64,000 nucleotides of DNA. It comes from Escherichia coli (GTDB taxonomy: Bacteria; Pseudomonadota; Gammaproteobacteria; Enterobacterales; Enterobacteriaceae). The number at the start of each line of letters is the position of its first letter. Position 1 is the stretch's first letter. The translations under genes and the position numbers were made by a program. This document shows, one piece after another, positions 6,519 to 62,423 of this stretch. The notes under the pieces were generated by a model. That model was not told the DNA's origin. It saw nothing but the letters and a program-made list of their open reading frames with translations, and ran no database searches. Where the stretch lies: the NCBI RefSeq assembly GCF_003790525.1, contig NZ_CP033632.1; one strand, written 5' to 3'.

Positions 6519-7718
6519 TCAGGCCGGCATATACCTCAGTAGACTGATATCCCGCGCGTTTTTCTTCAGCCCTGATACATTCAGCCCCGCAATGGCCCGG
6601 CGGTATACCATCCGGCAGCCACACAGCACGCATTCGAACGGGTCACGACTCAGGAACTGTTTCACCATTTGTGCATAGCACACTTTCGCCACTGGTTCCG
6701 GTTTATCCATCCCCAGTGCACGGTACACCTGCGGCAGCTTCTCTCCACACACACGGTTGGCAAGGAACCCGAAGTACCTCACCATCTTAAAAAACTTCTC
6801 CGGGATGTGCTGTTTCAGCCTCGCGACCAGCTCACGCTGTGTCAGCGTTTCCGTCGCCGTTTCTCCCGTTTTGTGGTCCAGGTAACGGAAGCTCAGGCTT
6901 GCCCCTCCGTTGTAATGAGCCAGTCGGGAAGCCGCTATTGGTGGCTTCTTCAGATAACGACCCAGGTAGCGTGCCGTATTCCGCCCTCCGGCTGTCTTCT
7001 TCGACATGTACACATGCCAGTATTTTCCGCCGGATTTCAGCACCAGGCTTCTCCACTGTGATTCCGTCGTGATATGTGACAACGACTCCGGCATTGCCAT
7101 CCCCTCTGACCACGCTTTCAGAAGCAGCTGCCGCATATTCCACATCCACCGTGAACGCATCGCGTCTTTCAGGAAGCTCAGCTTTTTCCACTGACCATGC
7201 TTATTCAGACCTCCACAGGTTACAGACACATGTACATGCGGATGCCAGTTGAGACGACGGCCATACGTGTGGATGGCGCAGAAGATACCGGGTTCCAGCC
7301 CCCGTTTTCGGGCGGCATACAGCAGATTCTCCACCGCCAGACGGCACACGTCATTCAGCAGCCAGCGGTTGCTTTCGAACACCGGCCACAGCGTGTCCGG
7401 CAGGGTGAAGACCAGATGTACCCAGTCGCAGTCAGGAAGACGATTCAGCTGTGTTGCTGTCCACAGGTCTGTGGCCTTCTTTCCGCAGGACGGGCAGGCA
7501 CGGCTGCCGCATGAGTTGGTCAGGTACTTTACGTGCTGACAGTCCGGGTTATCACACCCGAACTCTTTTACACCCAGTATCCGTGTGCCGCAGGCCAGCA
7601 TTTTGGTGACGGCTTCAACCTCGATATCGCGCAGACCGCCCGCATCCAGGAAGGACGTCCAGCACTGGTTGGCTGTGAACAGACGTTTCAGAGGGCGGGG
7701 AGTAAAACCGGACAACAT
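6519..7718 (-). CDS. IS91-family (HUH rolling-circle) transposase, 399 aa
   Basis: N-terminal Cys cluster CDNPDCQHVKYLTNSCGSRACPSCGKK and IS91-like body, recalled not searched. Confidence 0.65.
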   Translation of the reverse strand: MLSGFTPRPLKRLFTANQCWTSFLDAGGLRDIEVEAVTKMLACGTRILGVKEFGCDNPDCQHVKYLTNSCGSRACPSCGKKATDLWTATQLNRLPDCDWVHLVFTLPDTLWPVFESNRWLLNDVCRLAVENLLYAARKRGLEPGIFCAIHTYGRRLNWHPHVHVSVTCGGLNKHGQWKKLSFLKDAMRSRWMWNMRQLLLKAWSEGMAMPESLSHITTESQWRSLVLKSGGKYWHVYMSKKTAGGRNTARYLGRYLKKPPIAASRLAHYNGGASLSFRYLDHKTGETATETLTQRELVARLKQHIPEKFFKMVRYFGFLANRVCGEKLPQVYRALGMDKPEPVAKVCYAQMVKQFLSRDPFECVLCGCRMVYRRAIAGLNVSGLKKNARDISLLRYMPA

Positions 7719-7727
7719 GAGGATGGA

Positions 7728-7916
7728 TTAAACCCCGGTATCCTGTAGCAGGGTAAGGGCTGCTGTATCGCCACGGCGCTTCAGGATGGAGGTCGTCACC
7801 ATCGCAGGTGGTGGGTCCATGGGTTTGAGCATTTTCATCCAGTCCCATTCTCGTTGTGAGAGCTTCTCAGCACCAACAGAGAGCAGAACTGTATCGATAC
7901 TTTTGCGGGTCAACAT
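7728..7916 (-). CDS. Small ORF upstream of the IS91-family transposase, 62 aa
   Basis: Same strand, 9 bp upstream of the transposase gene; IS91-like elements often carry a small upstream ORF. Confidence 0.3.
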   Translation of the reverse strand: MLTRKSIDTVLLSVGAEKLSQREWDWMKMLKPMDPPPAMVTTSILKRRGDTAALTLLQDTGV

Positions 7917-8026
7917 AAGGGGATGAGTCCTTAATAAAACAGGTCCTCAGAGCATACATATTCTGCGGGGCGTGCGGCAACAACAGGACGAACCGGGGCG
8001 GTTTTCAATTTGCAGCCGCCAGGCTG

Positions 8027-9477
8027 CCGTGGTTCATGATAACTTCTGCTCTTCATCGTGCGGCCGACTGGGCTAAATCTGTGTTCTCTTCGGCGGCGCT
8101 GGGTGATCCTCGCCGTACTGCCCGCTTGGTTAACGTCGCCGCCCAATTGGCAAAATATTCTGGTAAATCAATAACCATCTCATCAGAGGGTAGTGAAGCC
8201 ATGCAGGAAGGCGCTTACCGATTTATCCGCAATCCCAACGTTTCTGCCGAGGCGATCAGAAAGGCTGGCGCCATGCAAACAGTCAAGTTGGCTCAGGAGT
8301 TTCCCGAACTGCTGGCCATTGAGGACACCACCTCTTTGAGTTATCGCCACCAGGTCGCCGAAGAGCTTGGCAAGCTGGGCTCTATTCAGGATAAATCCCG
8401 CGGATGGTGGGTTCACTCCGTTCTCTTGCTCGAGGCCACCACATTCCGCACCGTAGGATTACTGCATCAGGAGTGGTGGATGCGCCCGGATGACCCTGCC
8501 GATGCGGATGAAAAGGAGAGTGGCAAATGGCTGGCAGCGGCCGCAACTAGCCGGTTACGCATGGGCAGCATGATGAGCAACGTGATTGCGGTCTGTGACC
8601 GCGAAGCCGATATTCATGCTTATCTGCAGGACAAACTGGCGCATAACGAGCGCTTCGTGGTGCGCTCCAAGCACCCACGCAAGGACGTAGAGTCTGGGTT
8701 GTATCTGTACGACCATCTGAAGAACCAACCGGAGTTGGGTGGCTATCAGATCAGCATTCCGCAAAAGGGCGTGGTGGATAAACGCGGTAAACGTAAAAAT
8801 CGACCAGCCCGCAAGGCGAGCTTGAGCCTGCGCAGTGGGCGCATCACGCTAAAACAGGGGAATATCACGCTCAACGCGGTGCTGGCCGAGGAGATTAACC
8901 CGCCCAAGGGTGAGACCCCGTTGAAATGGTTGTTGCTGACCAGCGAACCGGTCGAGTCGCTAGCCCAAGCCTTGCGCGTCATCGACATTTATACCCATCG
9001 CTGGCGGATCGAGGAGTTCCATAAGGCATGGAAAACCGGAGCAGGAGCCGAGAGGCAACGCATGGAGGAGCCGGATAATCTGGAGCGGATGGTCTCGATC
9101 CTCTCGTTTGTTGCGGTCAGGCTGTTACAGCTCAGAGAAAGCTTCACGCTGCCGCAAGCACTCAGGGCGCAAGGGCTGCTAAAGGAAGCGGAACACGTAG
9201 AAAGCCAGTCCGCAGAAACGGTGCTGACCCCGGATGAATGTCAGCTACTGGGCTATCTGGACAAGGGAAAACGCAAGCGCAAAGAGAAAGCAGGTAGCTT
9301 GCAGTGGGCTTACATGGCGATAGCTAGACTGGGCGGTTTTATGGACAGCAAGCGAACCGGAATTGCCAGCTGGGGCGCCCTCTGGTAAGCTTGGGAAGCC
9401 CTGCAAAGTAAACTGGATGGCTTTCTTGCCGCCAAGGATCTGATGGCGCAGGGGATCAAGATCTGATCAAGAGACAG
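8027..9477 (+). mobile_element. IS50L: IS50L of Tn5, missing about 90 bp including the outside end
   Basis: Inside end agatctgatcaagagacag at 9459..9477; IS50 homology begins only about 6 bp upstream of the tnp start. Confidence 0.85.
8036..9388 (+). CDS. tnp: IS50L transposase, 450 aa (ochre-truncated relative to the 476-aa IS50R Tnp)
   Basis: Translation MITSALHRAADWAKSVF...; ends at ...GIASWGALW as expected for IS50L. Confidence 0.88.
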   Translation: MITSALHRAADWAKSVFSSAALGDPRRTARLVNVAAQLAKYSGKSITISSEGSEAMQEGAYRFIRNPNVSAEAIRKAGAMQTVKLAQEFPELLAIEDTTSLSYRHQVAEELGKLGSIQDKSRGWWVHSVLLLEATTFRTVGLLHQEWWMRPDDPADADEKESGKWLAAAATSRLRMGSMMSNVIAVCDREADIHAYLQDKLAHNERFVVRSKHPRKDVESGLYLYDHLKNQPELGGYQISIPQKGVVDKRGKRKNRPARKASLSLRSGRITLKQGNITLNAVLAEEINPPKGETPLKWLLLTSEPVESLAQALRVIDIYTHRWRIEEFHKAWKTGAGAERQRMEEPDNLERMVSILSFVAVRLLQLRESFTLPQALRAQGLLKEAEHVESQSAETVLTPDECQLLGYLDKGKRKRKEKAGSLQWAYMAIARLGGFMDSKRTGIASWGALW

Positions 9478-36280: not shown

Positions 36281-36670
36281 ATGGGCTTCCCTTCTCCTGC
36301 GGCGGATTATGTTGAAAGCCGAATTTCTCTTGATCAGCAACTAATCAGGCATCCATCAGCAACCTACTTCATGCGGGCAGTTGATAGCCATCACCGTGAG
36401 GGAATATTGCAGGGTGCTTTGCTGGTGGTTGATTCCTCGCTTACTCCGGTTGATGGTTCTCTGCTTGTGTGCGCTATGGAGGGTGAATATCGCATAAAGA
36501 GATACAGGAAGTATCCGCGCCAGCACCTGGAGGATTTAAGCACCGGGAAGAAAGAGGCGTTACCAGTAGATGACGATGGATGCACGGGCAGTAATGCTGT
36601 TTTTGGTGTGATCACTCATGTCATCAATGATGCCAGAAGTGGGGAGTTTGATGATTGTCCGGTTATTTAA
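36281..36670 (+). CDS. humD: HumD (UmuD'-like, LexA/S24 peptidase-type)
   Basis: 129-aa translation with S24-like features; LexA box upstream; position before phd-doc as in P1. Confidence 0.8.
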   Translation: MGFPSPAADYVESRISLDQQLIRHPSATYFMRAVDSHHREGILQGALLVVDSSLTPVDGSLLVCAMEGEYRIKRYRKYPRQHLEDLSTGKKEALPVDDDGCTGSNAVFGVITHVINDARSGEFDDCPVI

Positions 36671-36742: not shown

Positions 36743-36964
36743 ATGCAATCCATTAACTTCCGTACCGCGCGTGGCAACCTTTCTGAAGTGCTCAACAATG
36801 TTGAAGCCGGGGAAGAGGTTGAAATCACCCGCAGAGGCCGTGAGCCAGCAGTAATTGTCAGCAAGGCTACTTTCGAAGCCTACAAAAAAGCGGCGCTGGA
36901 TGCTGAATTTGCATCCCTGTTTGACACCCTGGACTCCACCAACAAGGAACTGGTTAACCGATAA
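36743..36964 (+). CDS. phd: Phd antitoxin, 73 aa
   Basis: Translation [73 protein letters not shown]. Confidence 0.9.
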
Positions 36965-37344
36965 TGAGGCATATATCACCGGAAGAACTTATTGCGCTTC
37001 ATGATGCGAATATAAGCCGCTACGGCGGCCTGCCGGGAATGTCTGATCCGGGTAGGGCAGAGGCCATTATCGGGAGAGTTCAGGCCAGAGTTGCCTACGA
37101 AGAGATCACCGACCTTTTCGAAGTCTCTGCCACCTACCTGGTGGCTACAGCGAGAGGGCATATATTCAATGATGCCAATAAGCGTACCGCGCTAAACAGT
37201 GCGCTGCTATTTCTACGCCGTAACGGGGTGCAGGTATTTGATTCACCTGAACTGGCAGACCTTACCGTAGGCGCTGCGACTGGCGAGATATCTGTATCTT
37301 CTGTCGCCGACACGTTACGTAGATTGTATGGTTCTGCGGAGTAG
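36964..37344 (+). CDS. doc: Doc toxin, 126 aa
   Basis: Translation [43 protein letters not shown]...; overlaps the phd stop. Confidence 0.9.
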
Positions 37345-49790: not shown

Positions 49791-51606
49791 GTTTTCCGGG
49801 CATCCGTAAGGGCCGAAACTTCCCGTCTTCCAGTCTGCGGCTCTGCCGCCAGACGTAATCGCCGGTTAGGTTGATGTGCTCCCAGCCCAGCGGCGACAGG
49901 AATTGCAGCAGCTCGCCGTCCACCGGCTTGCCGGCCTCGACCAACCCCTGGGTGGCGCGTTCCAGGTACACCGTGTTCCACAGCACGATAGCCGCCGTCA
50001 CCAGGTTGAGGCCGCTGGCCCGGTAGCGCTGCTGCTCGAAGCTCCGATCCCTGATTTCCCCAAGGCGGTTGAAGAACACCGCCCTGGCCAGCGAGTTGCG
50101 CGCCTCACCTTTGTTCAGGCCGGCATGCACGCGGCGGAGCAGTTCAACACTTTGCAGCCAGTCCAGGATGAACAGCGTGCGCTCGATCCGGCCCAGCTCG
50201 CGCAGGGCCACGGCCAGTCCGTTCTGGCGCGGGTAGCTGCCGAGCTTGCGCAGCATCAGCGAGGCGGTGACGGTGCCCTGCTTGATCGAGCTGGCCAGGC
50301 GCAGGATGTCGTCCCAGTGGGCACGCACGTGCTTGATGTTCAGGGTGCCGCCGATCAGCGGGCGCAACGTCGGGTAGGCTTGCACGCCCTGCGGCACGTA
50401 CAGCTTGGTTTCGCCGAGGTCGCGGATGCGCGGCGCGAAGCGGAAGCCTAGCAGGTGCATCAGGGCAAAGACGTGATCGGTGAAGCCGGCCGTGTCGGTG
50501 TAGTGCTCCTCGATCCGCAGGTCGGACTCGTGGTACAGCAGGCCGTCGAGCACATAGGTGGAATCGCGGACGCCGACATTCACCACGCGGGTGCTGAACG
50601 GCGCGTACTGGTCGGAGATATGGGTATAGAACAGCCGTCCCGGCTCGCTACCGTACTTCGGGTTGACGTGCCCGGTGCTCTCGCCCCGGCCCCCCGCGCG
50701 GAAGCGCTGGCCATCGGAGGATGAGGTCGTGCCGTCGCCCCAGTGGGCGGCAAAGGCGTGGCGATACTGGTGGTTGACCAGCTCGGCCAAGGCCGCCGAA
50801 TAGGTTTCGTCGCGGATGTGCCAGGCTTGCAGCCAGGACAGCTTGGCGTAGGTCAGGCCGGGGCTCGACTCGGCCATCTTGGTCAGCCCGAGGTTGATCG
50901 CATCACCGAGGATTGCGGACAGCAGCAACGTCCTGTCTTTGGCCTCGGCCCCGTCCTTCAAGTGGGTGAAGTGGCGGCTGAAGCCCGTCCAGTCGTCCAC
51001 GTCCATCAGCAGTTCGGTGATCTTGATGCGCGGCAGTAACTGGCTGGTTTGGTCGATCAGCGCCTGCGCCCGATCCGGCACCGCCGCATCCAGCGGGGTG
51101 ATTTTCAGCCCTGACTCGGTGAGGATGGCATCGGGCAGCTCGTTGTCCTTGGCCAGGCGGGTGACGGTGGCCAACTGCTCGTCCAGCAGCTGCAAACGCT
51201 CTTCCAGGTACTGGTCGCTGTTCGGGTTGATCGCCAGGGGCAGGGCCTGCTCGCGCTTGAGTGCGGCGAACTTCTCGGCCGGCAGCAGGTAGTCGTCGAA
51301 GTCGCGGAACTGCCGCGAGCCCTTGACCCAGATGTCGCCGGAGCGCAGGGCGTTCTTCAGCTCGGACAGGGCGCAGATTTCGTAGAATTTCCGGTCGAGG
51401 CCTTCCGGGGTGATCACCAGCGGCTTCCAGCGCGGCTTGATGAAGGCCGTGGGTGCATCGGCCGGCACCTTGCGCAGGTTGTCGGCGTTCATCTCACGCA
51501 GGGTCTGCACGGCTGCCAGCACGCCTTGCGCGGCCGGCCCGTGCTGTTCCCCAACTTTTCGCTCGGCGAAGAGTATGAACATGCGCCGCCGGCGACGAAT
51601 CGCCAA
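49786..51606 (-). pseudogene. tnpA: Tn3-family transposase (Tn1721-type), C-terminal about 600 codons only
   Basis: 606-aa ORF ending next to the IR; full-length proteins are near 990 aa. Confidence 0.85.
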
Positions 51607-51649
51607 ATCTCACCGTATCTCCCGAGCGGACGATTTCGCACCGGTCTGC

Positions 51650-51933
51650 CCGTCGAAGGGCTTGCGATCGAACGGGGCGACCTTTTCTATGCATGTCCGC
51701 GAGCCAGCGTCTTTTATGGCACGGCGCTCGACGCCGACCTTCGGACGCGCGGCGTAAGCACGCTTGTCATGGCCGGGATAAGCACCACCGGCGTTGTTCT
51801 TTCAAGCGTCGCCTGGGCTAGTGATGCGGACTACGACGTGCGTTTGGTCCAGGACTGCTGCTACGACCCGGATCGGGATGCCCACGAAGCTCTGTTGCGT
51901 TCCGGGTTCGGCGGACGTGTACAGGTCGTGTAA
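51650..51933 (+). pseudogene. Isochorismatase-family hydrolase C-terminal fragment
   Basis: Tail ...LVMAGISTTGVVLSSVAWASDADYDVRLVQDCCYDPDRDAHEALLRSGFGGRVQVV. Confidence 0.55.
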
Positions 51934-52070
51934 TTTTCGGGCCTCGCATGATCGCGGCCATAGCCGCAGGTGGATTGGTGCGAGGCAGGGCCAGTCCAAG
52001 TCAGGGTGCGGTCATCGCGGCGCCTGCAACTCTCAAAAACCCATCGCCGTAGCGGAGGTCTTGTAATCGC

Positions 52071-52955
52071 ATGTCATTACGCACGCCCGATTTATTGTTC
52101 ACAGCGATAGCACCTGCCATTTGGGGCAGCACCTACATTGTCACCACCCAATACCTGCCGAACTTCTCACCGATGACGGTCGCGATGCTGCGGGCGTTGC
52201 CGGCGGGTTTATTGCTCGTGATGATCGTCCGACAGATTCCAACGGGAATCTGGTGGATGCGCATCTTCATCCTCGGCGCACTTAATATTTCGCTATTCTG
52301 GAGCTTGTTGTTTATTTCGGTCTACCGCCTGCCGGGCGGGGTCGCGGCGACGGTAGGCGCTGTGCAGCCGCTGATGGTCGTGTTCATCTCTGCCGCTCTG
52401 CTAGGTAGCCCGATACGATTGATGGCGGTCCTGGGGGCTATTTGCGGAACTGCGGGCGTGGCGCTGTTGGTGTTGACACCAAACGCAGCGCTAGATCCTG
52501 TCGGCGTCGCAGCGGGCCTGGCGGGGGCGGTTTCCATGGCGTTCGGAACCGTGCTGACCCGCAAGTGGCAACCTCCCGTGCCTCTGCTCACCTTTACCGC
52601 CTGGCAACTGGCGGCCGGAGGACTTCTGCTCGTTCCAGTAGCTTTAGTGTTTGATCCGCCAATCCCGATGCCTACAGGAACCAATGTTCTCGGCCTGGCG
52701 TGGCTCGGCCTGATCGGAGCGGGTTTAACCTACTTCCTTTGGTTCCGGGGGATCTCGCGACTCGAACCTACAGTTGTTTCCTTACTGGGCTTTCTCAGCC
52801 CGGGGACCGCCGTGTTGCTAGGATGGTTGTTCTTGGATCAGACGCTGAGTGCGCTTCAAATCATCGGCGTCCTGCTCGTGATCGGGAGTATCTGGCTGGG
52901 CCAACGTTCCAACCGCACTCCTAGGGCGCGTATAGCTTGCCGGAAGTCGCCTTGA
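52071..52955 (+). CDS. pecM: EamA-family transporter PecM
   Basis: Ten-helix membrane protein beside tetA(A), as in Tn1721. Confidence 0.8.
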   Translation: MSLRTPDLLFTAIAPAIWGSTYIVTTQYLPNFSPMTVAMLRALPAGLLLVMIVRQIPTGIWWMRIFILGALNISLFWSLLFISVYRLPGGVAATVGAVQPLMVVFISAALLGSPIRLMAVLGAICGTAGVALLVLTPNAALDPVGVAAGLAGAVSMAFGTVLTRKWQPPVPLLTFTAWQLAAGGLLLVPVALVFDPPIPMPTGTNVLGLAWLGLIGAGLTYFLWFRGISRLEPTVVSLLGFLSPGTAVLLGWLFLDQTLSALQIIGVLLVIGSIWLGQRSNRTPRARIACRKSP

Positions 52956-52986
52956 CCCGCATGGCATAGGCCTATCGTTTCCACGA

Positions 52987-54186
52987 TCAGCGATCGGCTC
53001 GTTGCCCTGCGCCGCTCCAAAGCCCGCGACGCAGCGCCGGCAGGCAGAGCAAGTAGAGGGCAGCGCCTGCAATCCATGCCCACCCGTTCCACGTTGTTAT
53101 AGAAGCCGCATAGATCGCCGTGAAGAGGAGGGGTCCGACGATCGAGGTCAGGCTGGTGAGCGCCGCCAGTGAGCCTTGCAGCTGCCCCTGACGTTCCTCA
53201 TCCACCTGCCTGGACAACATTGCTTGCAGCGCCGGCATTCCGATGCCACCCGAAGCAAGCAGGACCATGATCGGGAACGCCATCCATCCCCGTGTCGCGA
53301 AGGCAAGCAGGATGTAGCCTGTGCCGTCGGCAATCATTCCGAGCATGAGTGCCCGCCTTTCGCCGAGCCGGGCGGCTACAGGGCCGGTGATCATTGCCTG
53401 GGCGAGTGAATGCAGAATGCCAAATGCGGCAAGCGAAATGCCGATCGTGGTCGCGTCCCAGTGAAAGCGATCCTCGCCGAAAATGACCCAAAGCGCGGCC
53501 GGCACCTGTCCGACAAGTTGCATGATGAAGAAGACCGCCATCAGGGCGGCGACGACGGTCATGCCCCGGGCCCACCGGAACGAAGCGAGCGGGTTGAGAG
53601 CCTCCCGGCGTAACGGCCGGCGTTCGCCTTTGTGCGACTCCGGCAAAAGGAAACAGCCCGTCAGGAAATTGAGGCCGTTCAAGGCTGCCGCGGCGAAGAA
53701 CGGAGCGTGGGGGGAGAAACCGCCCATCAGCCCACCGAGCACAGGTCCCGCGACCATCCCGAACCCGAAACAGGCGCTCATGAAGCCGAAGTGCCGCGCG
53801 CGCTCATCGCCATCAGTGATATCGGCAATATAAGCGCCGGCTACCGCCCCAGTCGCCCCGGTGATGCCGGCCACGATCCGCCCGATATAGAGAACCCAAA
53901 GGAAAGGCGCCGTCGCCATGATGGCGTAGTCGACAGCAGCGCCGGCCAGCGAGACGAGCAAGACCGGCCGCCGCCCGAAACGATCCGACAGCGCGCCCAG
54001 CACAGGTGCGCAGGCAAATTGCATCAACGCATACAGCGCCAGCAGAATGCCATAGTGGGCGGTGACGTCGTTCGAGTGAACCAGATCGCGCAGGAGGCCC
54101 GGCAGCACCGGCATAATCAGGCCGATGCCGACAGCGTCGAGCGCGACAGTGCTCAGAATTACGATCAGGGGTCTGTTGGGTTTCAC
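52987..54186 (-). CDS. tet(A): Tetracycline efflux protein TetA(A), 399 aa (GTG start)
   Basis: Translation from KPNRPLIVILSTVALDAVGIGLIMPVLPGLLRDLVHSNDVTAHYG... matches TetA(A). Confidence 0.95.
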   Translation of the reverse strand: MKPNRPLIVILSTVALDAVGIGLIMPVLPGLLRDLVHSNDVTAHYGILLALYALMQFACAPVLGALSDRFGRRPVLLVSLAGAAVDYAIMATAPFLWVLYIGRIVAGITGATGAVAGAYIADITDGDERARHFGFMSACFGFGMVAGPVLGGLMGGFSPHAPFFAAAALNGLNFLTGCFLLPESHKGERRPLRREALNPLASFRWARGMTVVAALMAVFFIMQLVGQVPAALWVIFGEDRFHWDATTIGISLAAFGILHSLAQAMITGPVAARLGERRALMLGMIADGTGYILLAFATRGWMAFPIMVLLASGGIGMPALQAMLSRQVDEERQGQLQGSLAALTSLTSIVGPLLFTAIYAASITTWNGWAWIAGAALYLLCLPALRRGLWSGAGQRADR

Positions 54187-54291
54187 GTCTGGCCTCCGGA
54201 CCAGCCTCCGCTGGTCCGATTGAACGCGCGGATTCTTTATCACTGATAAGTTGGTGGACATATTATGTTTATCAGTGATAAAGTGTCAAGC

Positions 54292-54942
54292 ATGACAAAG
54301 TTGCAGCCGAATACAGTGATCCGTGCCGCCCTGGACCTGTTGAACGAGGTCGGCGTAGACGGTCTGACGACACGCAAACTGGCGGAACGGTTGGGGGTTC
54401 AGCAGCCGGCGCTTTACTGGCACTTCAGGAACAAGCGGGCGCTGCTCGACGCACTGGCCGAAGCCATGCTGGCGGAGAATCATACGCATTCGGTGCCGAG
54501 AGCCGACGACGACTGGCGCTCATTTCTGATCGGGAATGCCCGCAGCTTCAGGCAGGCGCTGCTCGCCTACCGCGATGGCGCGCGCATCCATGCCGGCACG
54601 CGACCGGGCGCACCGCAGATGGAAACGGCCGACGCGCAGCTTCGCTTCCTCTGCGAGGCGGGTTTTTCGGCCGGGGACGCCGTCAATGCGCTGATGACAA
54701 TCAGCTACTTCACTGTTGGGGCCGTGCTTGAGGAGCAGGCCGGCGACAGCGATGCCGGCGAGCGCGGCGGCACCGTTGAACAGGCTCCGCTCTCGCCGCT
54801 GTTGCGGGCCGCGATAGACGCCTTCGACGAAGCCGGTCCGGACGCAGCGTTCGAGCAGGGACTCGCGGTGATTGTCGATGGATTGGCGAAAAGGAGGCTC
54901 GTTGTCAGGAACGTTGAAGGACCGAGAAAGGGTGACGATTGA
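54292..54942 (+). CDS. tetR(A): Tetracycline repressor TetR(A), 216 aa
   Basis: Translation MTKLQPNTVIRAALDLLNEVGVDGLTTRKLAERLGVQQPALYWHF... Confidence 0.95.
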   Translation: MTKLQPNTVIRAALDLLNEVGVDGLTTRKLAERLGVQQPALYWHFRNKRALLDALAEAMLAENHTHSVPRADDDWRSFLIGNARSFRQALLAYRDGARIHAGTRPGAPQMETADAQLRFLCEAGFSAGDAVNALMTISYFTVGAVLEEQAGDSDAGERGGTVEQAPLSPLLRAAIDAFDEAGPDAAFEQGLAVIVDGLAKRRLVVRNVEGPRKGDD

Positions 54943-55026
54943 TCAGGACCGCTGCCGGAGCGCAACCCACTCACTACAGCAGAGCCATGTAGACAACATC
55001 CCCTCCCCCTTTCCACCGCGTCAGAC

Positions 55027-55054
55027 GCCCGTAGCAGCCCGCTACGGGCTTTTT
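55027..55054 (+). terminator. Rho-independent terminator downstream of tetR(A)
   Basis: Stem gcccgtagc/gctacgggc followed by ttttt. Confidence 0.65.
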
Positions 55055-55289
55055 CATGCCCTGCCCTAGCGTCCAAGCCTCACGGCCGCGCTCGGCCTCT
55101 CTGGCGGCCTTCTGGCGCTCCTGCTGCGGCGTCCGCTCGTGGGCCGTGGCGCGGGTCCGCGCGCCGGCCTCGTGCGCCTGGCGCTCGCGGGCGAGGTCCA
55201 GGGCGGCCGTCTTCACGTTCTGCCTTGCGCAGATGAGATAGATCTAGCGTGGACTCAAGGCTCTCGCGAATGGCTCGCGTTGGAAACTT

Positions 55290-55960
55290 TCATTGACACT
55301 TGAGGGGCACCGCAGGGAAATTCTCGTCCTTGCGAGAACCGGCTATGTCGTGCTGCGCATCGAGCCTGCGCCCTTGGCTTGTCTCGCCCCTCTCCGCGTC
55401 GCTACGGGGCTTCCAGCGCCTTTCCGACGCTCACCGGGCTGGTTGCCCTCGCCGCTGGGCTGGCGGCCGTCTATGGCCCTGCAAACGCGCCAGAAACGCC
55501 GTCGAAGCCGTGTGCGAGACACCGCGGCCGCCGGCGTTGTGGATACCTCGCGGAAAACTTGGCCCTCACTGACAGATGAGGGGCGCGATCCTTGACACTT
55601 GAGGGGCAGAGTGCTGACAGATGAGGGGCGCACCTATTGACATTTGAGGGGCTGTCCACAGGCAGAAAATCCAGCATTTGCAAGGGTTTCCGCCCGTTTT
55701 TCGGCCACCGCTAACCTGTCTTTTAACCTGCTTTTAAACCAATATTTATAAACCTTGTTTTTAACCAGGGCTGCGCCCTGTGCGCGTGACCGCGCACGCC
55801 GAAGGGGGGTGCCCCCCCTTCTCGAACCCTCCCGGCCCGCTAACGCGGGCCTCCCATCCCCCCAGGGGCTGCGCCCCTCGGCCGCGAACGGCCTCACCCC
55901 AAAAATGGCAGCGCCTACGGCGCTGACTCTTTCGTTGACCAGGCGCAAGCGCCTGGAAAT
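55290..55960. other. oriV: IncP-1 (RK2-like) oriV relic with iterons, A+T-rich and GC-rich tracts
   Basis: 17-bp iterons tgaca(c/g)(a/t)tgaggggc at 55294, 55570, 55593, 55615, 55638, followed by the AT-rich and GC-rich oriV segments as recalled. Confidence 0.8.
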
Positions 55961-55969
55961 GCTCAATTA

Positions 55970-56007
55970 GGGGGCACCTCAGAAAACGGAAAATAAAGCA
56001 CGCTAAG
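55970..56007. repeat. Tn21-subgroup 38-bp terminal IR at the mer end
   Basis: gggggcacctcagaaaacggaaaataaagcacgctaag. Confidence 0.85.
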
Positions 56008-56437
56008 GCATAGCTGACCTTGCCAGGCCTGCTTCGCCCTGTAGTGACGCGATCAACGGGCAGGAAACATTCCCCTTTCGTGCATGGCAGGCGCACACGA
56101 GTTCAGACAGCACGGTTTCCATGCGCGCCAAGTCGGCCATCTTCTCGCGCACGTCCTTGAGCTTGTGTTCGGCCAGGCTGCTGGCCTCCTCGCAGTGGGT
56201 GCCATCGTCGAGCCGCAACAGCTCGGCAATCTCGTCCAGACTGAACCCCAGCCGCTGTGCCGATTTCACGAATTTCACCCGAACCACGTCCGCCTCCCCA
56301 TAGCGGCGGATGCTGCCGTAAGGCTTGTCCGGTTCCCGCAACAGGCCCTTGCGCTGATAGAAGCGGATTGTCTCCACGTTGACCCCGGCCGCCTTGGCAA
56401 AAACGCCAATGGTCAGGTTTTCCAAATTATTTTCCAT
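56003..56437 (-). CDS. merR: MerR regulator, 144 aa
   Basis: Translation from [33 protein letters not shown]... Confidence 0.92.
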
Positions 56438-56508
56438 ATCGCTTGACTCCGTACATGAGTACGGAAGTAAGGTTACGCTATCCAATCCAAATTCAAAAGG
56501 GCCAACGT

Positions 56509-56859
56509 ATGTCTGAACCACAAAACGGGCGCGGTGCGCTCTTCGCCGGCGGGCTGGCCGCCATTCTTGCATCGACCTGCTGCCTGGGGCCGCTAGTACT
56601 GGTCGCCCTGGGCTTCTCCGGTGCTTGGATCGGCAACCTGACGGTGCTGGAACCCTATCGACCGTTGTTCATCGGCGCGGCGCTAGTGGCGCTGTTCTTC
56701 GCCTGGAAGCGGATTTACCGGCCCGTGCAGGCATGCAAGCCAGGTGAGGTCTGCGCGATTCCGCAGGTGCGCGCCACCTACAAGCTGATTTTCTGGATCG
56801 TGGCCGTGCTGGTCCTGGTCGCGCTTGGATTTCCCTATGTCGTTCCATTTTTCTATTAA
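56509..56859 (+). CDS. merT: MerT, 116 aa
   Basis: Translation [42 protein letters not shown]... Confidence 0.92.
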
Positions 56860-56872
56860 CCAGGAGTTCATC

Positions 56873-57148
56873 ATGAAGAAACTGTTTGCCTCCCTTGCCC
56901 TCGCCGCCACTGTTGCCCCGGTGTGGGCCGCTACCCAGACCGTCACGCTAGCGGTTCCCGGCATGACTTGCGCCGCCTGCCCGATCACAGTCAAGAAAGC
57001 GCTCTCCAAGGTCGAAGGCGTGAGCAAGGTCGATGTGGGCTTCGAGAAGCGCGAGGCCGTCGTCACTTTTGACGACACCAAGGCCAGCGTACAGAAGCTG
57101 ACCAAGGCCACCGCAGACGCCGGCTATCCGTCCAGCGTCAAGCAGTGA
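56873..57148 (+). CDS. merP: MerP, 91 aa
   Basis: Signal peptide plus GMTCAAC metal-binding motif. Confidence 0.92.
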   Translation: MKKLFASLALAATVAPVWAATQTVTLAVPGMTCAACPITVKKALSKVEGVSKVDVGFEKREAVVTFDDTKASVQKLTKATADAGYPSSVKQ

Positions 57149-57183
57149 GCCAGCAAGCCAACGACAACAGCGAGAGCCGCTTC

Positions 57184-57606
57184 ATGGGACTGATGACACG
57201 CATTGCCGATAAAACCGGCGCGCTCGGCAGCGTCGTTTCCGCGATGGGCTGCGCCGCCTGCTTTCCAGCCCTCGCCAGCTTCGGCGCGGCCATCGGGCTG
57301 GGCTTCTTGAGCCAGTACGAGGGACTGTTCATCAGCCGCCTGCTGCCGCTGTTTGCCGCGCTGGCCTTCCTGGCGAACGCGCTGGGTTGGTTCAGTCATC
57401 GGCAATGGCTGCGCAGTCTGCTCGGCATGATCGGCCCGGCCATCGTGTTTGCGGCCACGGTCTGGCTGCTCGGCAACTGGTGGACGGCGAACCTGATGTA
57501 CGTCGGCCTGGCCTTGATGATTGGGGTGTCGATCTGGGACTTCGTGTCGCCGGCGCATCGCCGTTGCGGACCGGACGGCTGCGAACTCCCCGCCAAGCGC
57601 TTGTGA
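57184..57606 (+). CDS. merC: MerC, 140 aa
   Basis: Translation from MGLMTRIADKTGALGSVVSAMGCAACFPALASFG... Confidence 0.85.
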   Translation: MGLMTRIADKTGALGSVVSAMGCAACFPALASFGAAIGLGFLSQYEGLFISRLLPLFAALAFLANALGWFSHRQWLRSLLGMIGPAIVFAATVWLLGNWWTANLMYVGLALMIGVSIWDFVSPAHRRCGPDGCELPAKRL

Positions 57607-59352
<1,746 letters not shown>

Positions 59353-59369
59353 GGACAAGGAGGTGTGCG

Positions 59370-59732
59370 ATGAGCGCCTACACGGTATCGCAACTGGCCC
59401 ATAACGTTGGGGTGAGCGTACATATCGTGCGCGACTACCTGGTGCGCGGCTTGTTACGGCCGGTGGCCTGCACCACGGGCGGCTACGGCGTGTTCGACGA
59501 TGCGGCCTTGCAACGGCTGTGCTTCGTGCGCGCGGCCTTCGAGGCGGGTATCGGCCTGGATGCCCTGGCGCGGCTGTGCCGTGCGCTCGACGCAGCGGAC
59601 GGCGCACAAGCCGCAGCGCAGCTTGCCGTGCTGCGCCAGTTGGTCGAGCGGCGGCGCGCGGCGTTGGCCCATCTGGACGCGCAACTGGCCTCCATGCCAG
59701 CCGAGCGGGCGCACGAGGAGGCATTGCCGTGA
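59370..59732 (+). CDS. merD: MerD
   Basis: MerR-like HTH protein after merA; start taken at [11 protein letters not shown]. Confidence 0.85.
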
Positions 59733-59965
59733 ACGCCCCTGACAAACTGCCGCCCGAGACGCGCCAACCCGTTTCCGGCTACCTGTGGGGTGCGCTGGCC
59801 GTGTTGACCTGCCCCTGCCATCTGCCGATTCTCGCCGCCGTGCTGGCCGGGACGACCGCCGGTGCCTTCCTTGGCGAGCATTGGGGTGTTGCCGCGCTCG
59901 CGCTGACCGGCTTGTTCGTTCTGGCCGTAACGCGGCTGCTGCGCGCCTTCCGGGGCGGATCATGA
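59729..59965 (+). CDS. merE: MerE, 78 aa (GTG start)
   Basis: Translation [47 protein letters not shown]... Confidence 0.85.
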
Positions 59966-60669
59966 CGAGTTCGCAGCCCGCCGGATGGACGGCGGCCGAG
60001 TTGGCGCAGGCGGCGGCGCGCGGACAGCTTGACCTGCATTACCAGCCGCTGGTCGATCTGCGCGATCACCGGATCGCTGGCGCGGAAGCGTTGATGCGCT
60101 GGCGGCATCCGAGGCTTGGCCTGTTGCCGCCCGGCCAGTTCCTGCCGCTGGCCGAGTCGTTCGGCCTGATGCCGGAAATAGGCGCGTGGGTGCTGGGCGA
60201 GGCCTGTCGCCAGATGCACAAGTGGCAAGGACCGGCATGGCAACCGTTCCGTCTTGCCATCAATGTGTCCGCCAGCCAGGTTGGGCCAACGTTCGACGAC
60301 GAGGTAAAGCTGGTGCTGGCCGATATGGCCCTGCCCGCCGAGCTTCTGGAGATCGAACTGACCGAATCGGTCGCATTCGGCAATCCAGCCCTGTTCGCCA
60401 GTTTCGACGCCTTGCGCGCCATCGGCGTGCGCTTCGCCGCCGACGACTTCGGCACCGGCTATTCCTGCCTGCAACATCTGAAATGCTGCCCCATCACCAC
60501 ATTGAAAATCGACCAATCCTTTGTCGCCAGGCTCCCGGATGATGCCCGTGACCAAACTATCGTGCGGGCGGTGATCCAGCTCGCGCACGGGCTGGGCATG
60601 GATGTCATTTTCAGAAGACGACTGCACCAGTTGATTGGGCGTAATGGCTGTTGTGCAGCCAGCTCCTGA
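59962..60669 (+). CDS. urf2: Urf2 (EAL-domain protein); 3' end encoded by integron IRt-proximal DNA
   Basis: ATGA overlap with merE; frame runs through IRt as in Tn21. Confidence 0.8.
   Translation: MTSSQPAGWTAAELAQAAARGQLDLHYQPLVDLRDHRIAGAEALMRWRHPRLGLLPPGQFLPLAESFGLMPEIGAWVLGEACRQMHKWQGPAWQPFRLAINVSASQVGPTFDDEVKLVLADMALPAELLEIELTESVAFGNPALFASFDALRAIGVRFAADDFGTGYSCLQHLKCCPITTLKIDQSFVARLPDDARDQTIVRAVIQLAHGLGMDVIFRRRLHQLIGRNGCCAASS
60603..60627. repeat. IRt: Class 1 integron/Tn402 IRt (25 bp)
   Basis: tgtcattttcagaagacgactgcac. Confidence 0.85.
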
Positions 60670-60743
60670 CAGTTCAATATCAGAAGTGATCTGCACCAAT
60701 CTCGACTATGCTCAATACTCGTGTGCACCAAAGCGAGGTGAGC

Positions 60744-62423
60744 ATGGCGACGGACACCCCACGGATTCCAGAACAAGGCGTGGCCACTCTGCCTGATGAG
60801 GCTTGGGAGCGTGCGCGCCGTCGTGCGGAGATCATCAGTCCGTTGGCGCAGTCGGAGACGGTCGGGCACGAAGCGGCCGATATGGCGGCTCAGGCGCTGG
60901 GCTTGTCTCGGCGCCAGGTATACGTTCTGATCCGGCGTGCCCGGCAAGGCAGCGGCCTCGTGACGGATCTGGTGCCCGGCCAGTCCGGTGGAGGTAAAGG
61001 TAAGGGGCGCTTGCCGGAACCGGTCGAGCGCGTCATCCACGAGCTACTGCAAAAGCGGTTCCTGACCAAGCAGAAGCGCAGCCTAGCGGCCTTTCACCGC
61101 GAAGTCACTCAGGTGTGCAAGGCTCAAAAACTGCGAGTGCCGGCGCGCAATACCGTGGCCTTACGGATCGCTAGCCTTGACCCGCGCAAGGTCATCCGCC
61201 GGCGGGAAGGCCAGGATGCCGCTCGTGACCTACAAGGTGTGGGCGGCGAGCCTCCTGCCGTGACCGCGCCGCTGGAGCAGGTGCAGATAGACCATACGGT
61301 CATCGACCTGATCGTGGTCGATGACCGCGACCGGCAACCTATTGGCCGCCCGTACCTGACCCTCGCCATCGACGTGTTCACCCGCTGCGTGCTCGGCATG
61401 GTCGTCACGCTGGAAGCGCCGTCTGCCGTTTCGGTTGGCCTGTGCCTCGTGCATGTCGCCTGCGACAAGCGCCCTTGGCTGGAAGGACTGAACGTGGAAA
61501 TGGATTGGCAGATGAGCGGCAAGCCCTTGCTGCTCTACCTAGACAACGCGGCCGAGTTCAAGAGCGAGGCCCTGCGCCGGGGTTGCGAGCAGCATGGCAT
61601 CCGGCTGGACTATCGCCCGCTGGGACAGCCGCACTATGGCGGCATCGTGGAACGGATCATCGGCACGGCGATGCAGATGATTCACGACGAACTGCCGGGA
61701 ACGACCTTCTCCAACCCTGACCAGCGCGGCGACTACGATTCCGAAAACAAGGCCGCCCTGACGCTGCGCGAGCTAGAGCGCTGGCTCACATTGGCGGTCG
61801 GCACCTACCACGGTTCGGTGCACAACGGCCTGCTCCAACCGCCGGCCGCGCGCTGGGCCGAGGCCGTGGCGCGTGTCGGCGTACCGGCCGTCGTCACACG
61901 CGCTACTTCGTTCCTGGTCGATTTTCTGCCGATCCTCCGGCGCACGCTGACCCGCACCGGCTTTGTCATCGACCACATCCACTACTACGCCGATGCGCTC
62001 AAGCCGTGGATTGCGCGGCGTGAACGCTGGCCGTCCTTTCTGATCCGGCGCGATCCGCGCGACATCAGCCGTATCTGGGTCCTGGAACCGGAGGGACAGC
62101 ATTACCTGGAAATTCCCTACCGTACCTTGTCGCATCCGGCTGTCACCCTCTGGGAACAACGGCAGGCGCTGGCGAAACTGCGGCAGCAAGGGCGCGAACA
62201 GGTGGATGAGTCGGCGCTGTTCCGCATGATCGGCCAGATGCGTGAGATTGTGACCAGCGCGCAGAAGGCCACACGCAAGGCGCGGCGTGACGCGGATCGC
62301 CGCCAGCACCTCAAGACATCAGCTCGGCCGGACAAGCCCGTTCCGCCGGATACGGATATTGCCGACCCGCAGGCAGACAACTTGCCACCCGCCAAACCGT
62401 TCGACCAGATTGAGGAGTGGTAG
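60744..62423 (+). CDS. tniA: Tn402-type transposase TniA, 559 aa
   Basis: Translation from MATDTPRIPEQGVATLPDEAWERARRRAEIISPLAQ... Confidence 0.92.
   Translation: MATDTPRIPEQGVATLPDEAWERARRRAEIISPLAQSETVGHEAADMAAQALGLSRRQVYVLIRRARQGSGLVTDLVPGQSGGGKGKGRLPEPVERVIHELLQKRFLTKQKRSLAAFHREVTQVCKAQKLRVPARNTVALRIASLDPRKVIRRREGQDAARDLQGVGGEPPAVTAPLEQVQIDHTVIDLIVVDDRDRQPIGRPYLTLAIDVFTRCVLGMVVTLEAPSAVSVGLCLVHVACDKRPWLEGLNVEMDWQMSGKPLLLYLDNAAEFKSEALRRGCEQHGIRLDYRPLGQPHYGGIVERIIGTAMQMIHDELPGTTFSNPDQRGDYDSENKAALTLRELERWLTLAVGTYHGSVHNGLLQPPAARWAEAVARVGVPAVVTRATSFLVDFLPILRRTLTRTGFVIDHIHYYADALKPWIARRERWPSFLIRRDPRDISRIWVLEPEGQHYLEIPYRTLSHPAVTLWEQRQALAKLRQQGREQVDESALFRMIGQMREIVTSAQKATRKARRDADRRQHLKTSARPDKPVPPDTDIADPQADNLPPAKPFDQIEEW

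What the first reader, a model, noticed from the sequence alone, without database searches (positions are those of the whole stretch)
55290..55960. IncP-1 oriV relic lies between the tet(A) module and the mer transposon without trfA
Five 17-bp iterons plus the AT-rich and GC-rich oriV segments match RK2-type oriV as recalled, but the expected eight iterons are not all present and no trfA lies within the window. The Tn21-type IR abuts the GC-rich end at 55970. The arrangement tetR(A)-oriV looks like the RK2 or IncP-1 beta tet region, implying this block was lifted from an IncP-1 plasmid along with the transposon-derived tet genes.
Basis: partly seen in the sequence, partly recalled or inferred. 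Interest (0 to 1): 0.4.

Follow-up and report, generated by a model that had tools for sequence, protein, structure and literature searches.

The report
Dead IncP-1α plasmid origin remnant
This is a leftover, internally deleted copy of the replication origin of an RK2-type (IncP-1α) plasmid, carried as passenger DNA between a tetracycline-resistance module and the mercury transposon Tn21; the arrangement is already published and widespread, so the finding is correct but ordinary.

Summary
There are five exact 17-bp iterons, at 55294, 55570, 55593, 55615 and 55638, followed by an AT-rich and then a GC-rich segment. Window 52186-55969 is colinear with the IncP-1α plasmid pBS228 (tetA-tetR-oriV) at 99.7-100% identity. 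The one exception is a 218-bp deletion formed across an 18-bp repeat shared by iterons 2 and 6. It removed four of the nine iterons and all three DnaA-box-like sites. Other IncP-1 subgroups are only about 72-73% identical, so the source was α, not β.

IncP homology stops exactly at 55969, and the 38-bp IRmer of Tn21 starts at 55970. There is no trfA in the window. The left arm of the tet module (full pecM, ΔtnpA, Tn1721 IR at 49753) is longer than in pBS228, so pBS228 is not the direct donor.

The Tn21-oriV(IncP-1α)-ΔTn1721 locus, including iteron-deletion variants, was described by Venturini et al. 2013. This exact deletion junction occurs in 57 PLSDB plasmids and 29 of 5426 complete E. coli genomes. 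The undeleted relic occurs in about 300 plasmids.

The relic is most likely inert hitchhiking DNA. It may still bind TrfA if an IncP-1α plasmid enters the cell. Interest is low and the feature is already known.

The parts
49753..49790 (+). 38-bp terminal inverted repeat of Tn1721 (tet-end IR). It is the left boundary of the ΔTn1721-oriV-Tn21 block.
   Evidence: Exact match to the Tn1721 IR. Homology with unrelated plasmids and chromosomes starts at 49752/49753.
49786..51606 (-). Truncated Tn1721 tnpA (ΔtnpA)
   Evidence: ORF of 606 aa matching Pfam DDE_Tnp_Tn3, E=5.9e-154. Annotated as a partial TnAs1-family transposase in relatives.
52071..52955 (+). pecM / EamA-family transporter gene of Tn1721. 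It is full length here; pBS228 homology begins only at 52186.
   Evidence: ORF list. Annotated as WP_000058717.1 in colinear records. pBS228 homology starts at 52186.
52990..54186 (-). tet(A) tetracycline efflux gene
   Evidence: Coordinates transferred from pFORC19 (L001, 99.94% colinear over 49752-61995).
54292..54942 (+). tetR(A) repressor gene
   Evidence: The same protein, WP_000164043.1, is annotated in pBS228.
54974..55216 (-). 80-aa ORF between tetR and oriV, also present in pBS228. Its coding status is doubtful.
   Evidence: Annotated as WP_000844627.1 'transposase' and 'relaxase' in other records. No Pfam domain at E<=0.01.
52186..55969 (+). Block colinear with the IncP-1α plasmid pBS228 (ΔpecM-tetA-tetR-oriV), apart from the 218-bp deletion
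   Evidence: blastn: 52186-55607 = L002 3602-7021 (99.7%); 55568-55969 = L002 7200-7601 (100%).
55294..55308 (+). oriV iteron 1 (the solitary upstream iteron)
   Evidence: Exact iteron match. Aligns to the pBS228 iteron at L002 6710.
55568..55585 (+). Deletion junction: the 18-bp ACTGACAGATGAGGGGCG shared by iterons 2 and 6. 218 bp of the α origin are missing here.
   Evidence: Alignment A1. The two blast segments overlap. Sequence context is printed.
55570..55652 (+). Remaining cluster of four iterons (hybrid 2/6, then 7, 8 and 9)
55700..55768 (+). AT-rich DNA-unwinding region of oriV with short repeated motifs
   Evidence: GC minimum. Direct repeats D4 at 55713-55766. 100% identical to pBS228.
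55769..55900 (+). GC-rich segment of oriV
   Evidence: GC 0.69-0.78. 100% identical to pBS228.
55901..55969 (+). Last 69 bp of IncP-1α backbone (the klcA side of oriV) before the Tn21 insertion point
   Evidence: Identical to pBS228 up to L002 7601, then the sequences diverge.
55970..56007 (+). IRmer, the 38-bp terminal inverted repeat of Tn21
   Evidence: Exact match.
56003..56437 (-). merR, the first gene of the Tn21 mer module. merTPCADE, urf2, tniA and other genes follow, running to the end of the window.
   Evidence: Annotation of colinear records; colinearity shown.

Best explanation
The feature is a non-functional remnant of the vegetative replication origin (oriV) of an IncP-1α (RK2/RP4/pBS228-type) plasmid. 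It travels as passenger DNA inside a widely disseminated resistance block: Tn1721-derived tet(A) module, then oriV, then Tn21.

Inferred history:
1. An IncP-1α plasmid already carried the tetA-tetR module next to oriV.
2. Tn21 transposed into the backbone just beyond oriV, on the klcA side, at the position equivalent to 55969/55970.
3. The stretch from the Tn1721 IR through Tn21 was later moved into other replicons, leaving trfA and the rest of the IncP backbone behind.
4. In one lineage, recombination or slippage between the 18-bp identical cores of iterons 2 and 6 removed 218 bp. That took four iterons and the DnaA-box cluster.

The plasmid in this window has a P1-like phage-plasmid backbone and no trfA in the 64 kb available. 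The relic therefore cannot fire on its own. Because the DnaA boxes required in E. coli are gone, it should not fire in E. coli even if TrfA were supplied in trans.

Shown: sequence identity, deletion anatomy, junctions, absence of trfA, and distribution. Inferred: the order of events and the lack of function.
For: - Five exact iterons.
- 100% identity to pBS228 oriV over 55568-55969, and 99.7% over 52186-55607, in the same gene order tetA-tetR-orf-oriV.
- The deletion maps to an 18-bp repeat between iterons 2 and 6. It removes the three DnaA-box-like sites at L002 7130-7164.
- Only about 72-73% identity to other IncP-1 subgroups.
- No trfA in the window.
- Exact Tn21 IR at 55970 and exact Tn1721 IR at 49753.
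- The same oriV/IRmer junction occurs in pU302L, pFORC19, pPSS-10_1 and an E. coli chromosome.
- The 200-bp segment missing here is present in 311 PLSDB plasmids, but only 12 carry the full klcA-side IncP-1α flank, so most are relics in other replicons.
- The deletion-specific 36-mer occurs in 57 plasmids and 29 E. coli genomes.
- Other iteron-to-iteron deletions exist: 160 bp in pO26-CRL125 (PMC3817090) and 544 bp in pPSS-10_1.
- Venturini et al. 2013 describe the Tn21-oriV(IncP-1α)-ΔTn1721 locus and judge it non-functional because trfA is absent.
- The minimal RK2 origin needs correctly placed DnaA boxes, iterons and the unwinding element (review PMC4980987).
Against: - No experiment was done, so lack of function is inferred.
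- Only 64 kb of the replicon is visible. A trfA elsewhere on the plasmid or in the host cannot be excluded from the window alone.
- Four contiguous iterons and an intact AT-rich/GC-rich core remain. From my own recollection of the RK2 literature (Schmidhauser 1983; Shah 1995; Doran 1999), such a core can suffice in Pseudomonas when TrfA is supplied, so 'dead' may be host-dependent.
- pBS228 lacks the left arm of the tet module seen here, so the exact donor is not identified.
- No klcA-side IncP flank was found next to any non-IncP Tn21. The Tn21 transposition step therefore rests on one junction only.
Confidence: 0.88

Rival explanations
1. The relic is still biologically active in trans. Its five iterons bind TrfA whenever an IncP-1α plasmid enters the same cell. 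They would then either titrate or handcuff the initiator, which would show as incompatibility or lowered copy number of the incoming plasmid, or act as a TrfA-dependent auxiliary origin in hosts that do not need the DnaA boxes, such as Pseudomonas.
For: The iterons, AT-rich region and GC-rich region are 100% identical to a working α origin. Four iterons remain contiguous with the unwinding element. From my own knowledge, not tested here: cloned RK2 iterons express incompatibility and inhibit replication (Kittell and Helinski 1991), and the DnaA-box requirement is host-dependent (Doran et al. 1999).
Against: Nothing indicates selection for the relic. It decays through several independent iteron deletions, down to a single iteron in pPSS-10_1, and is interrupted by IS421 in pU302L. 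That is the pattern of neutral passenger DNA. IncP-1α plasmids are rare among the enterobacterial records that carry the relic (12 records with the full klcA-side flank). In E. coli the position and orientation of the DnaA boxes are critical, and here they are absent.
Confidence: 0.2
2. The block came from an IncP-1β plasmid of the pB10 type, not from an α plasmid.
For: Venturini et al. state that the ΔTn1721 module, including ΔtnpA, is identical to that of the IncP-1β plasmid pB10, and that the oriV-ΔTn1721 module matches pB10. That would explain the longer left arm that pBS228 lacks.
Against: Over 55560-55969 the origin is 100% identical to α plasmids, while β-type plasmids such as pJP4 reach only 72-73%. 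pB10 is not in the searchable collection, so its sequence could not be compared directly. If pB10 has α-type sequence next to tetR, that sequence would itself be an import.
Confidence: 0.05
3. The repeats belong to an unrelated repeat family or are a chance cluster, not IncP oriV.
For: None found.
Against: The match to pBS228 is base-for-base on both sides of a single deletion. None of 100 shuffles reaches the observed hit count.
Confidence: 0.01

Closest known systems
oriV of IncP-1α plasmids (RK2/RP4/RP1, pBS228 NC_008357)
   Same: The nucleotide sequence is identical for iteron 1, iterons 7-9, the AT-rich unwinding region, the GC-rich region and 69 bp beyond. The neighbours on the left are also the same (tetA-tetR-80-aa ORF).
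   Different: 218 bp are missing: four of the nine iterons and the DnaA-box cluster. There is no trfA, ssb, klcA or any other IncP backbone. Tn21 replaces the klcA side at 55970. pecM is full length and is followed by ΔtnpA and the Tn1721 IR, which pBS228 lacks.
Tn21-oriV(IncP-1α)-ΔTn1721 complex resistance locus of pO111-CRL115 / pO26-CRL125 (Venturini et al. 2013, PMC3817090)
   Same: The three modules are the same and in the same order. The oriV/ΔTn1721 junction is the same as in pBS228. trfA is absent. pO26-CRL125 also has an internal iteron deletion.
   Different: The deletion here is 218 bp (iteron 2 to 6). pO26-CRL125 has a 160-bp deletion removing iterons 4 and 5, and pO111-CRL115 has none. 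The host replicon here is a P1-like phage-plasmid rather than IncZ/IncI1-type. Those records were not aligned directly.
Full-length relic in pU302L (NC_006816) and about 300 other enterobacterial plasmids
   Same: Same tetR-oriV sequence and same oriV/IRmer junction.
   Different: pU302L keeps all nine iterons, but has IS421 inserted in the GC-rich segment and IS5075 next to the Tn21 IR.
pPSS-10_1 (NZ_AP027686), a P1-like phage-plasmid
   Same: Related backbone and the same ΔTn1721-oriV-Tn21 block.
   Different: Its relic is reduced to a single iteron by a 544-bp iteron 1 to iteron 9 deletion. The block is inserted about 4 kb away at a different backbone site, bounded by both Tn1721 IRs with a 5-bp duplication CTGGG.

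Membership tests
IncP-1α oriV (RK2-type origin sequence) | Direct 17-bp TrfA-binding iterons with core TGACANNTGAGGGGC | tested here: met
   Five exact copies on one strand, each aligned to a pBS228 iteron.
IncP-1α oriV (RK2-type origin sequence) | Full complement of nine direct iterons arranged 1 + 3 + 5 | tested here: not met
   The window has 1 + 4. pBS228 has nine, at L002 6710-7284.
IncP-1α oriV (RK2-type origin sequence) | DnaA-box cluster immediately upstream of the main iteron cluster | tested here: not met
   The three DnaA-box-like sites at L002 7130-7164 lie inside the 218-bp deletion. Only one distant box-like site remains, at 55538.
IncP-1α oriV (RK2-type origin sequence) | AT-rich unwinding region followed by a GC-rich region downstream of the iterons | tested here: met
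   Composition, repeats and 100% identity to pBS228.
IncP-1α oriV (RK2-type origin sequence) | Near-identity to α-subgroup origins rather than to other IncP-1 subgroups | tested here: met
   100% identity to α plasmids, against 71-73% for full-length matches to other subgroups (up to 77.5% at 85% coverage).
Functional IncP-1 replicon | Cognate initiator gene trfA on the same replicon | tested here: not met
   tblastn with pBS228 TrfA gives a best E of 0.4. Only the 64-kb window could be tested.
Functional IncP-1 replicon | TrfA-dependent initiation at the origin | not testable with these tools
   This needs a replication assay with TrfA supplied in trans.
Tn21-oriV-ΔTn1721 complex resistance locus (Venturini 2013) | ΔTn1721 arm: IR, ΔtnpA, pecM, tetA(A), tetR(A) | tested here: met
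Tn21-oriV-ΔTn1721 complex resistance locus (Venturini 2013) | The tetR-to-oriV junction is identical to that of pBS228 | tested here: met
   Continuous 99.7% alignment over 52186-55607. Alignment A1 is identical over 55230-55567.
Tn21-oriV-ΔTn1721 complex resistance locus (Venturini 2013) | IRmer of Tn21, followed by the mer operon, abuts the far end of oriV | tested here: met
   Exact IR at 55970. merR-merE and the following genes are colinear with Tn21-bearing records.
Tn21-oriV-ΔTn1721 complex resistance locus (Venturini 2013) | Tn21 transposition module (tnpM, tnpR, tnpA, IRtnp) at the other end | not testable with these tools
   The window ends at 64000, inside the integron 3' region. The source replicon was not found in PLSDB or among the E. 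coli genomes.

The most novel reading that the evidence does not exclude
The truncated origin (four contiguous iterons plus an intact unwinding element, without DnaA boxes) may still be a working TrfA-responsive element. It could give the resistance block, here on a P1-like phage-plasmid, incompatibility against incoming IncP-1α plasmids. Or it could allow helper-dependent replication in non-enteric hosts such as Pseudomonas when an IncP-1α plasmid co-resides.
Probability: 0.15. Interest if true: 0.35.

Novelty: already known. Interest (0 to 1): 0.1.

Why it matters
- It documents how backbone DNA of a broad-host-range plasmid is dragged along with resistance transposons into unrelated replicons. 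Here the recipient is a P1-like phage-plasmid; elsewhere the block also sits in E. coli chromosomes.
- The different iteron-to-iteron deletions (160, 218 and 544 bp) are convenient lineage markers for tracing the tet(A)-Tn21 block.
- Annotation pipelines leave the relic unlabelled, and a replicon-typing or origin-finding tool could mistake it for an IncP replicon.
- Beyond that, nothing here changes current understanding.

Tried and rejected
- RK2 (BN000925) and pB10 (NC_004840) could not be fetched because they are not in the collections. pBS228 served as the α reference instead, and pB10 remains uncompared.
- I looked for the exact Tn1721/IncP backbone boundary to the right of tetR. I inspected records whose homology stops at 55063, 55157, 55192, 55205, 55241 and 55416. 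All were secondary junctions (IS26, strAB/Tn5393 IR, class 1 integron 5'-CS, IncN backbone). None was a canonical Tn1721 IRR-I, so that boundary stays undefined.
- I looked for the other IncP flank of the ancestral Tn21 insertion (klcA-side sequence next to IRtnp). None exists outside true IncP-1α plasmids and one Tn21-free Klebsiella/Serratia lineage.
- I looked for the source replicon in order to see the right end and a target duplication. No record covers the window in the same arrangement.
- A scan for an inverted tenth iteron, allowing up to 2 mismatches, found none in the window or in pBS228.
- The β-origin and unrelated-repeat readings were rejected.

Full report
**Observation.**
- The iteron core TGACANNTGAGGGGC occurs five times with no mismatch, all on the + strand, at 55294, 55570, 55593, 55615 and 55638. 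Dinucleotide shuffles of the window give a mean of 1.76 hits even when two mismatches are allowed, and none of 100 shuffles reaches the observed total of eight.
- Downstream lies an AT-rich stretch: GC is 0.46-0.50 in 100-bp windows around 55650-55799. It holds three AACCTGTCTTTTAACC-like repeats at 55713-55766.
- A GC-rich stretch follows, with GC 0.69-0.78 at 55750-55949.
- The exact 38-bp Tn21 terminal repeat GGGGGCACCTCAGAAAACGGAAAATAAAGCACGCTAAG lies at 55970-56007.

**Identity.**
- I used the 200 bp that I recalled from RK2 between the iteron clusters as a probe. It matched 311 PLSDB plasmids at 99-100%, including the IncP-1α plasmid pBS228.
- In pBS228 the gene order is trfA ... tet(A), tetR(A), an 80-aa ORF, oriV, klcA.
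- Window 52186-55607 equals pBS228 locus L002 3602-7021 at 99.7%. Window 55568-55969 equals L002 7200-7601 at 100%.
- The two segments overlap, which marks a single deletion. The three-way alignment shows that 218 bp of the α origin are missing. The break lies inside ACTGACAGATGAGGGGCG, an 18-bp stretch identical in iteron 2 and iteron 6.
- pBS228 has nine direct iterons arranged 1 + 3 + 5, and three DnaA-box-like sites between iterons 4 and 5 (L002 7130-7164). The window keeps iteron 1, a 2/6 hybrid, and iterons 7, 8 and 9. It has lost all three DnaA-box-like sites.
- Origins of other IncP-1 subgroups, such as pJP4, are only about 72-73% identical over 55560-55969. The source was therefore an α plasmid, not a β plasmid.

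**Boundaries and neighbours.**
- On the right, identity with pBS228 stops exactly at 55969 and the Tn21 IR begins at 55970. pBS228 continues there towards klcA. merR and the mer operon follow.
- On the left, homology with pBS228 begins only at 52186, inside pecM. The window continues with a full-length pecM (52071-52955), an isochorismatase-like ORF, a truncated Tn3-family tnpA (49786-51606; Pfam DDE_Tnp_Tn3, E=5.9e-154) and the exact Tn1721 IR at 49753-49790.
- The tet arm is thus more complete than in pBS228. The donor was another IncP-1α plasmid, or the left arm was exchanged by recombination within tet. According to the literature, pB10 carries such an arm, but it could not be fetched.
- tblastn with pBS228 TrfA finds nothing in the window (best E=0.4).

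**Context.** The window is a P1-like phage-plasmid.
- 27.9-49.75 kb carries P1-type genes: a UmuD-like gene and doc, and lpa, terminase, c1, cre-like integrase and ref by colinearity with pPSS-10_1 and NZ_CP062884.
- 0.9-27.9 kb is an IS26-rich resistance region.
- The ΔTn1721-oriV-Tn21 block is inserted in the backbone at 49752/49753.

**Distribution.**
- The same block, starting precisely at the Tn1721 IR, occurs in IncF plasmids (pFORC19), in many other plasmids, and in E. coli chromosomes. In strain G47-1 it sits between IS1 copies in the elfA-ssuE interval.
- I designed a 36-mer that can seed a megablast hit only across the deletion junction. It is present in 57 PLSDB plasmids (40 Escherichia, 11 Salmonella, and a few Klebsiella, Citrobacter, Shigella and Enterobacter) and in 29 of 5426 complete E. 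coli genomes, 11 of them chromosomal.
- The undeleted relic is more common. Of the 311 records holding the 200-bp probe segment, only 12 carry the full klcA-side α backbone flank.
- Other iteron-to-iteron deletions exist. pPSS-10_1 retains a single iteron after a 544-bp iteron 1 to iteron 9 deletion. pO26-CRL125 lacks 160 bp.
- pU302L has the full origin, interrupted by IS421 in the GC-rich part.
- About ten Klebsiella/Serratia plasmids keep oriV plus 303 bp of klcA-side backbone without Tn21. This is evidence of a second, independent capture.

**Literature.**
- Venturini et al. [quoted passage not shown]
  - It is identical to pBS228 and has nine iterons in pO111-CRL115.
  - pO26-CRL125 has a 160-bp deletion that removes iterons 4 and 5, two DnaA sites and an IHF site.
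  - The authors note that trfA is absent and that the origin is not expected to function.
- A review of iteron plasmids states that the minimal RK2 origin consists of DnaA boxes, iterons and the unwinding element. It adds that the position and orientation of the DnaA boxes are critical in E. coli (PMC4980987).

**Mechanism.** The best-supported account is historical, not functional.
1. Tn21 inserted into an IncP-1α plasmid just past oriV.
2. The segment from the Tn1721 IR through Tn21 was then moved elsewhere without trfA.
3. The repeated iterons have since been collapsing through recombination or slippage.

The relic should be inert in this plasmid. Because the DnaA boxes are gone, it should also be inert in E. 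coli if TrfA were provided. The sequence identity, junctions and deletion anatomy are shown. The order of events and the loss of function are inferred.

The main rival is residual activity in trans: TrfA titration or handcuffing, or helper-dependent firing in hosts that do not need the DnaA boxes. It is biochemically plausible, because the remaining iterons and unwinding element are intact. However, the pattern of repeated independent decay argues against selection for any such role.

**Verdict.**
- the source was α, not β;
- a single 218-bp iteron 2/6 deletion removed the DnaA boxes;
- the Tn1721 left arm is longer than in pBS228.

The feature is already known and widespread, so interest is low.

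Noticed in passing
window 27900-49752: The backbone is a P1-like phage-plasmid. It has a UmuD-like gene (36281-36670) and doc (36964-37344), with lpa, terminase genes, c1, a cre-like integrase and ref inferred by colinearity with pPSS-10_1 and NZ_CP062884. In NZ_CP062884, Tn21 alone is inserted 144 bp away, at the position equivalent to 49608/49609. This backbone spot has therefore been hit independently.
   Followed up: partly
window 872-27928: A large IS26-rich multiresistance region. There are 13 IS26 end motifs, and the best matches carry oqxAB, aph(3')-IIa, IS91-family elements and mph(A)/mrx. It was not analysed further.
   Followed up: no
L004 (pPSS-10_1, NZ_AP027686) 18283-41148: A 22.9-kb element bounded by the Tn1721 tet-end IR and an IRL-like Tn1721 IR, flanked by a 5-bp duplication CTGGG. 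It carries tet(A), the oriV relic reduced to one iteron, and Tn21 remnants. The whole composite evidently transposed as a Tn1721 derivative.
   Followed up: partly
L006 (IncC plasmid pRM13514) 5217/5218, equivalent to window 55416/55417: A Tn5393-type IR (recognised from memory, next to strAB) is inserted into the same RK2-type sequence between iterons 1 and 2. The floR-tet(A)-strAB-sul2 cluster annotated in this IncC record therefore still carries oriV iteron 1.
   Followed up: partly
window 54974-55216 (- strand): An 80-aa ORF (WP_000844627.1) lies between tetR and oriV and is also present in pBS228. Different records call it 'transposase' or 'relaxase', but it has no Pfam domain. It is probably not a real gene, or it is mis-named.
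   Followed up: partly
PLSDB records NZ_CP024192, NZ_CP024564, NZ_LR890548, NZ_LR890658 and others: Klebsiella and Serratia plasmids carry α oriV plus 303 bp of klcA-side IncP backbone with no Tn21 at the 55969 position. This indicates a separate capture of the same origin region.
   Followed up: no
L003 (pU302L) 7449-8787, equivalent to window 55806-55817: IS421 is inserted in the GC-rich part of the full-length relic, with a 12-bp duplication. An IS5075 transposase gene is annotated just beyond the Tn21 IR.
   Followed up: partly
L010 (E. coli G47-1 chromosome) 15872-35897: The same block, with the 218-bp deletion form, lies in the chromosome between elfA and ssuE, bracketed by IS1 copies. 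Eleven of the 29 E. coli genomes with this junction carry it chromosomally.
   Followed up: partly
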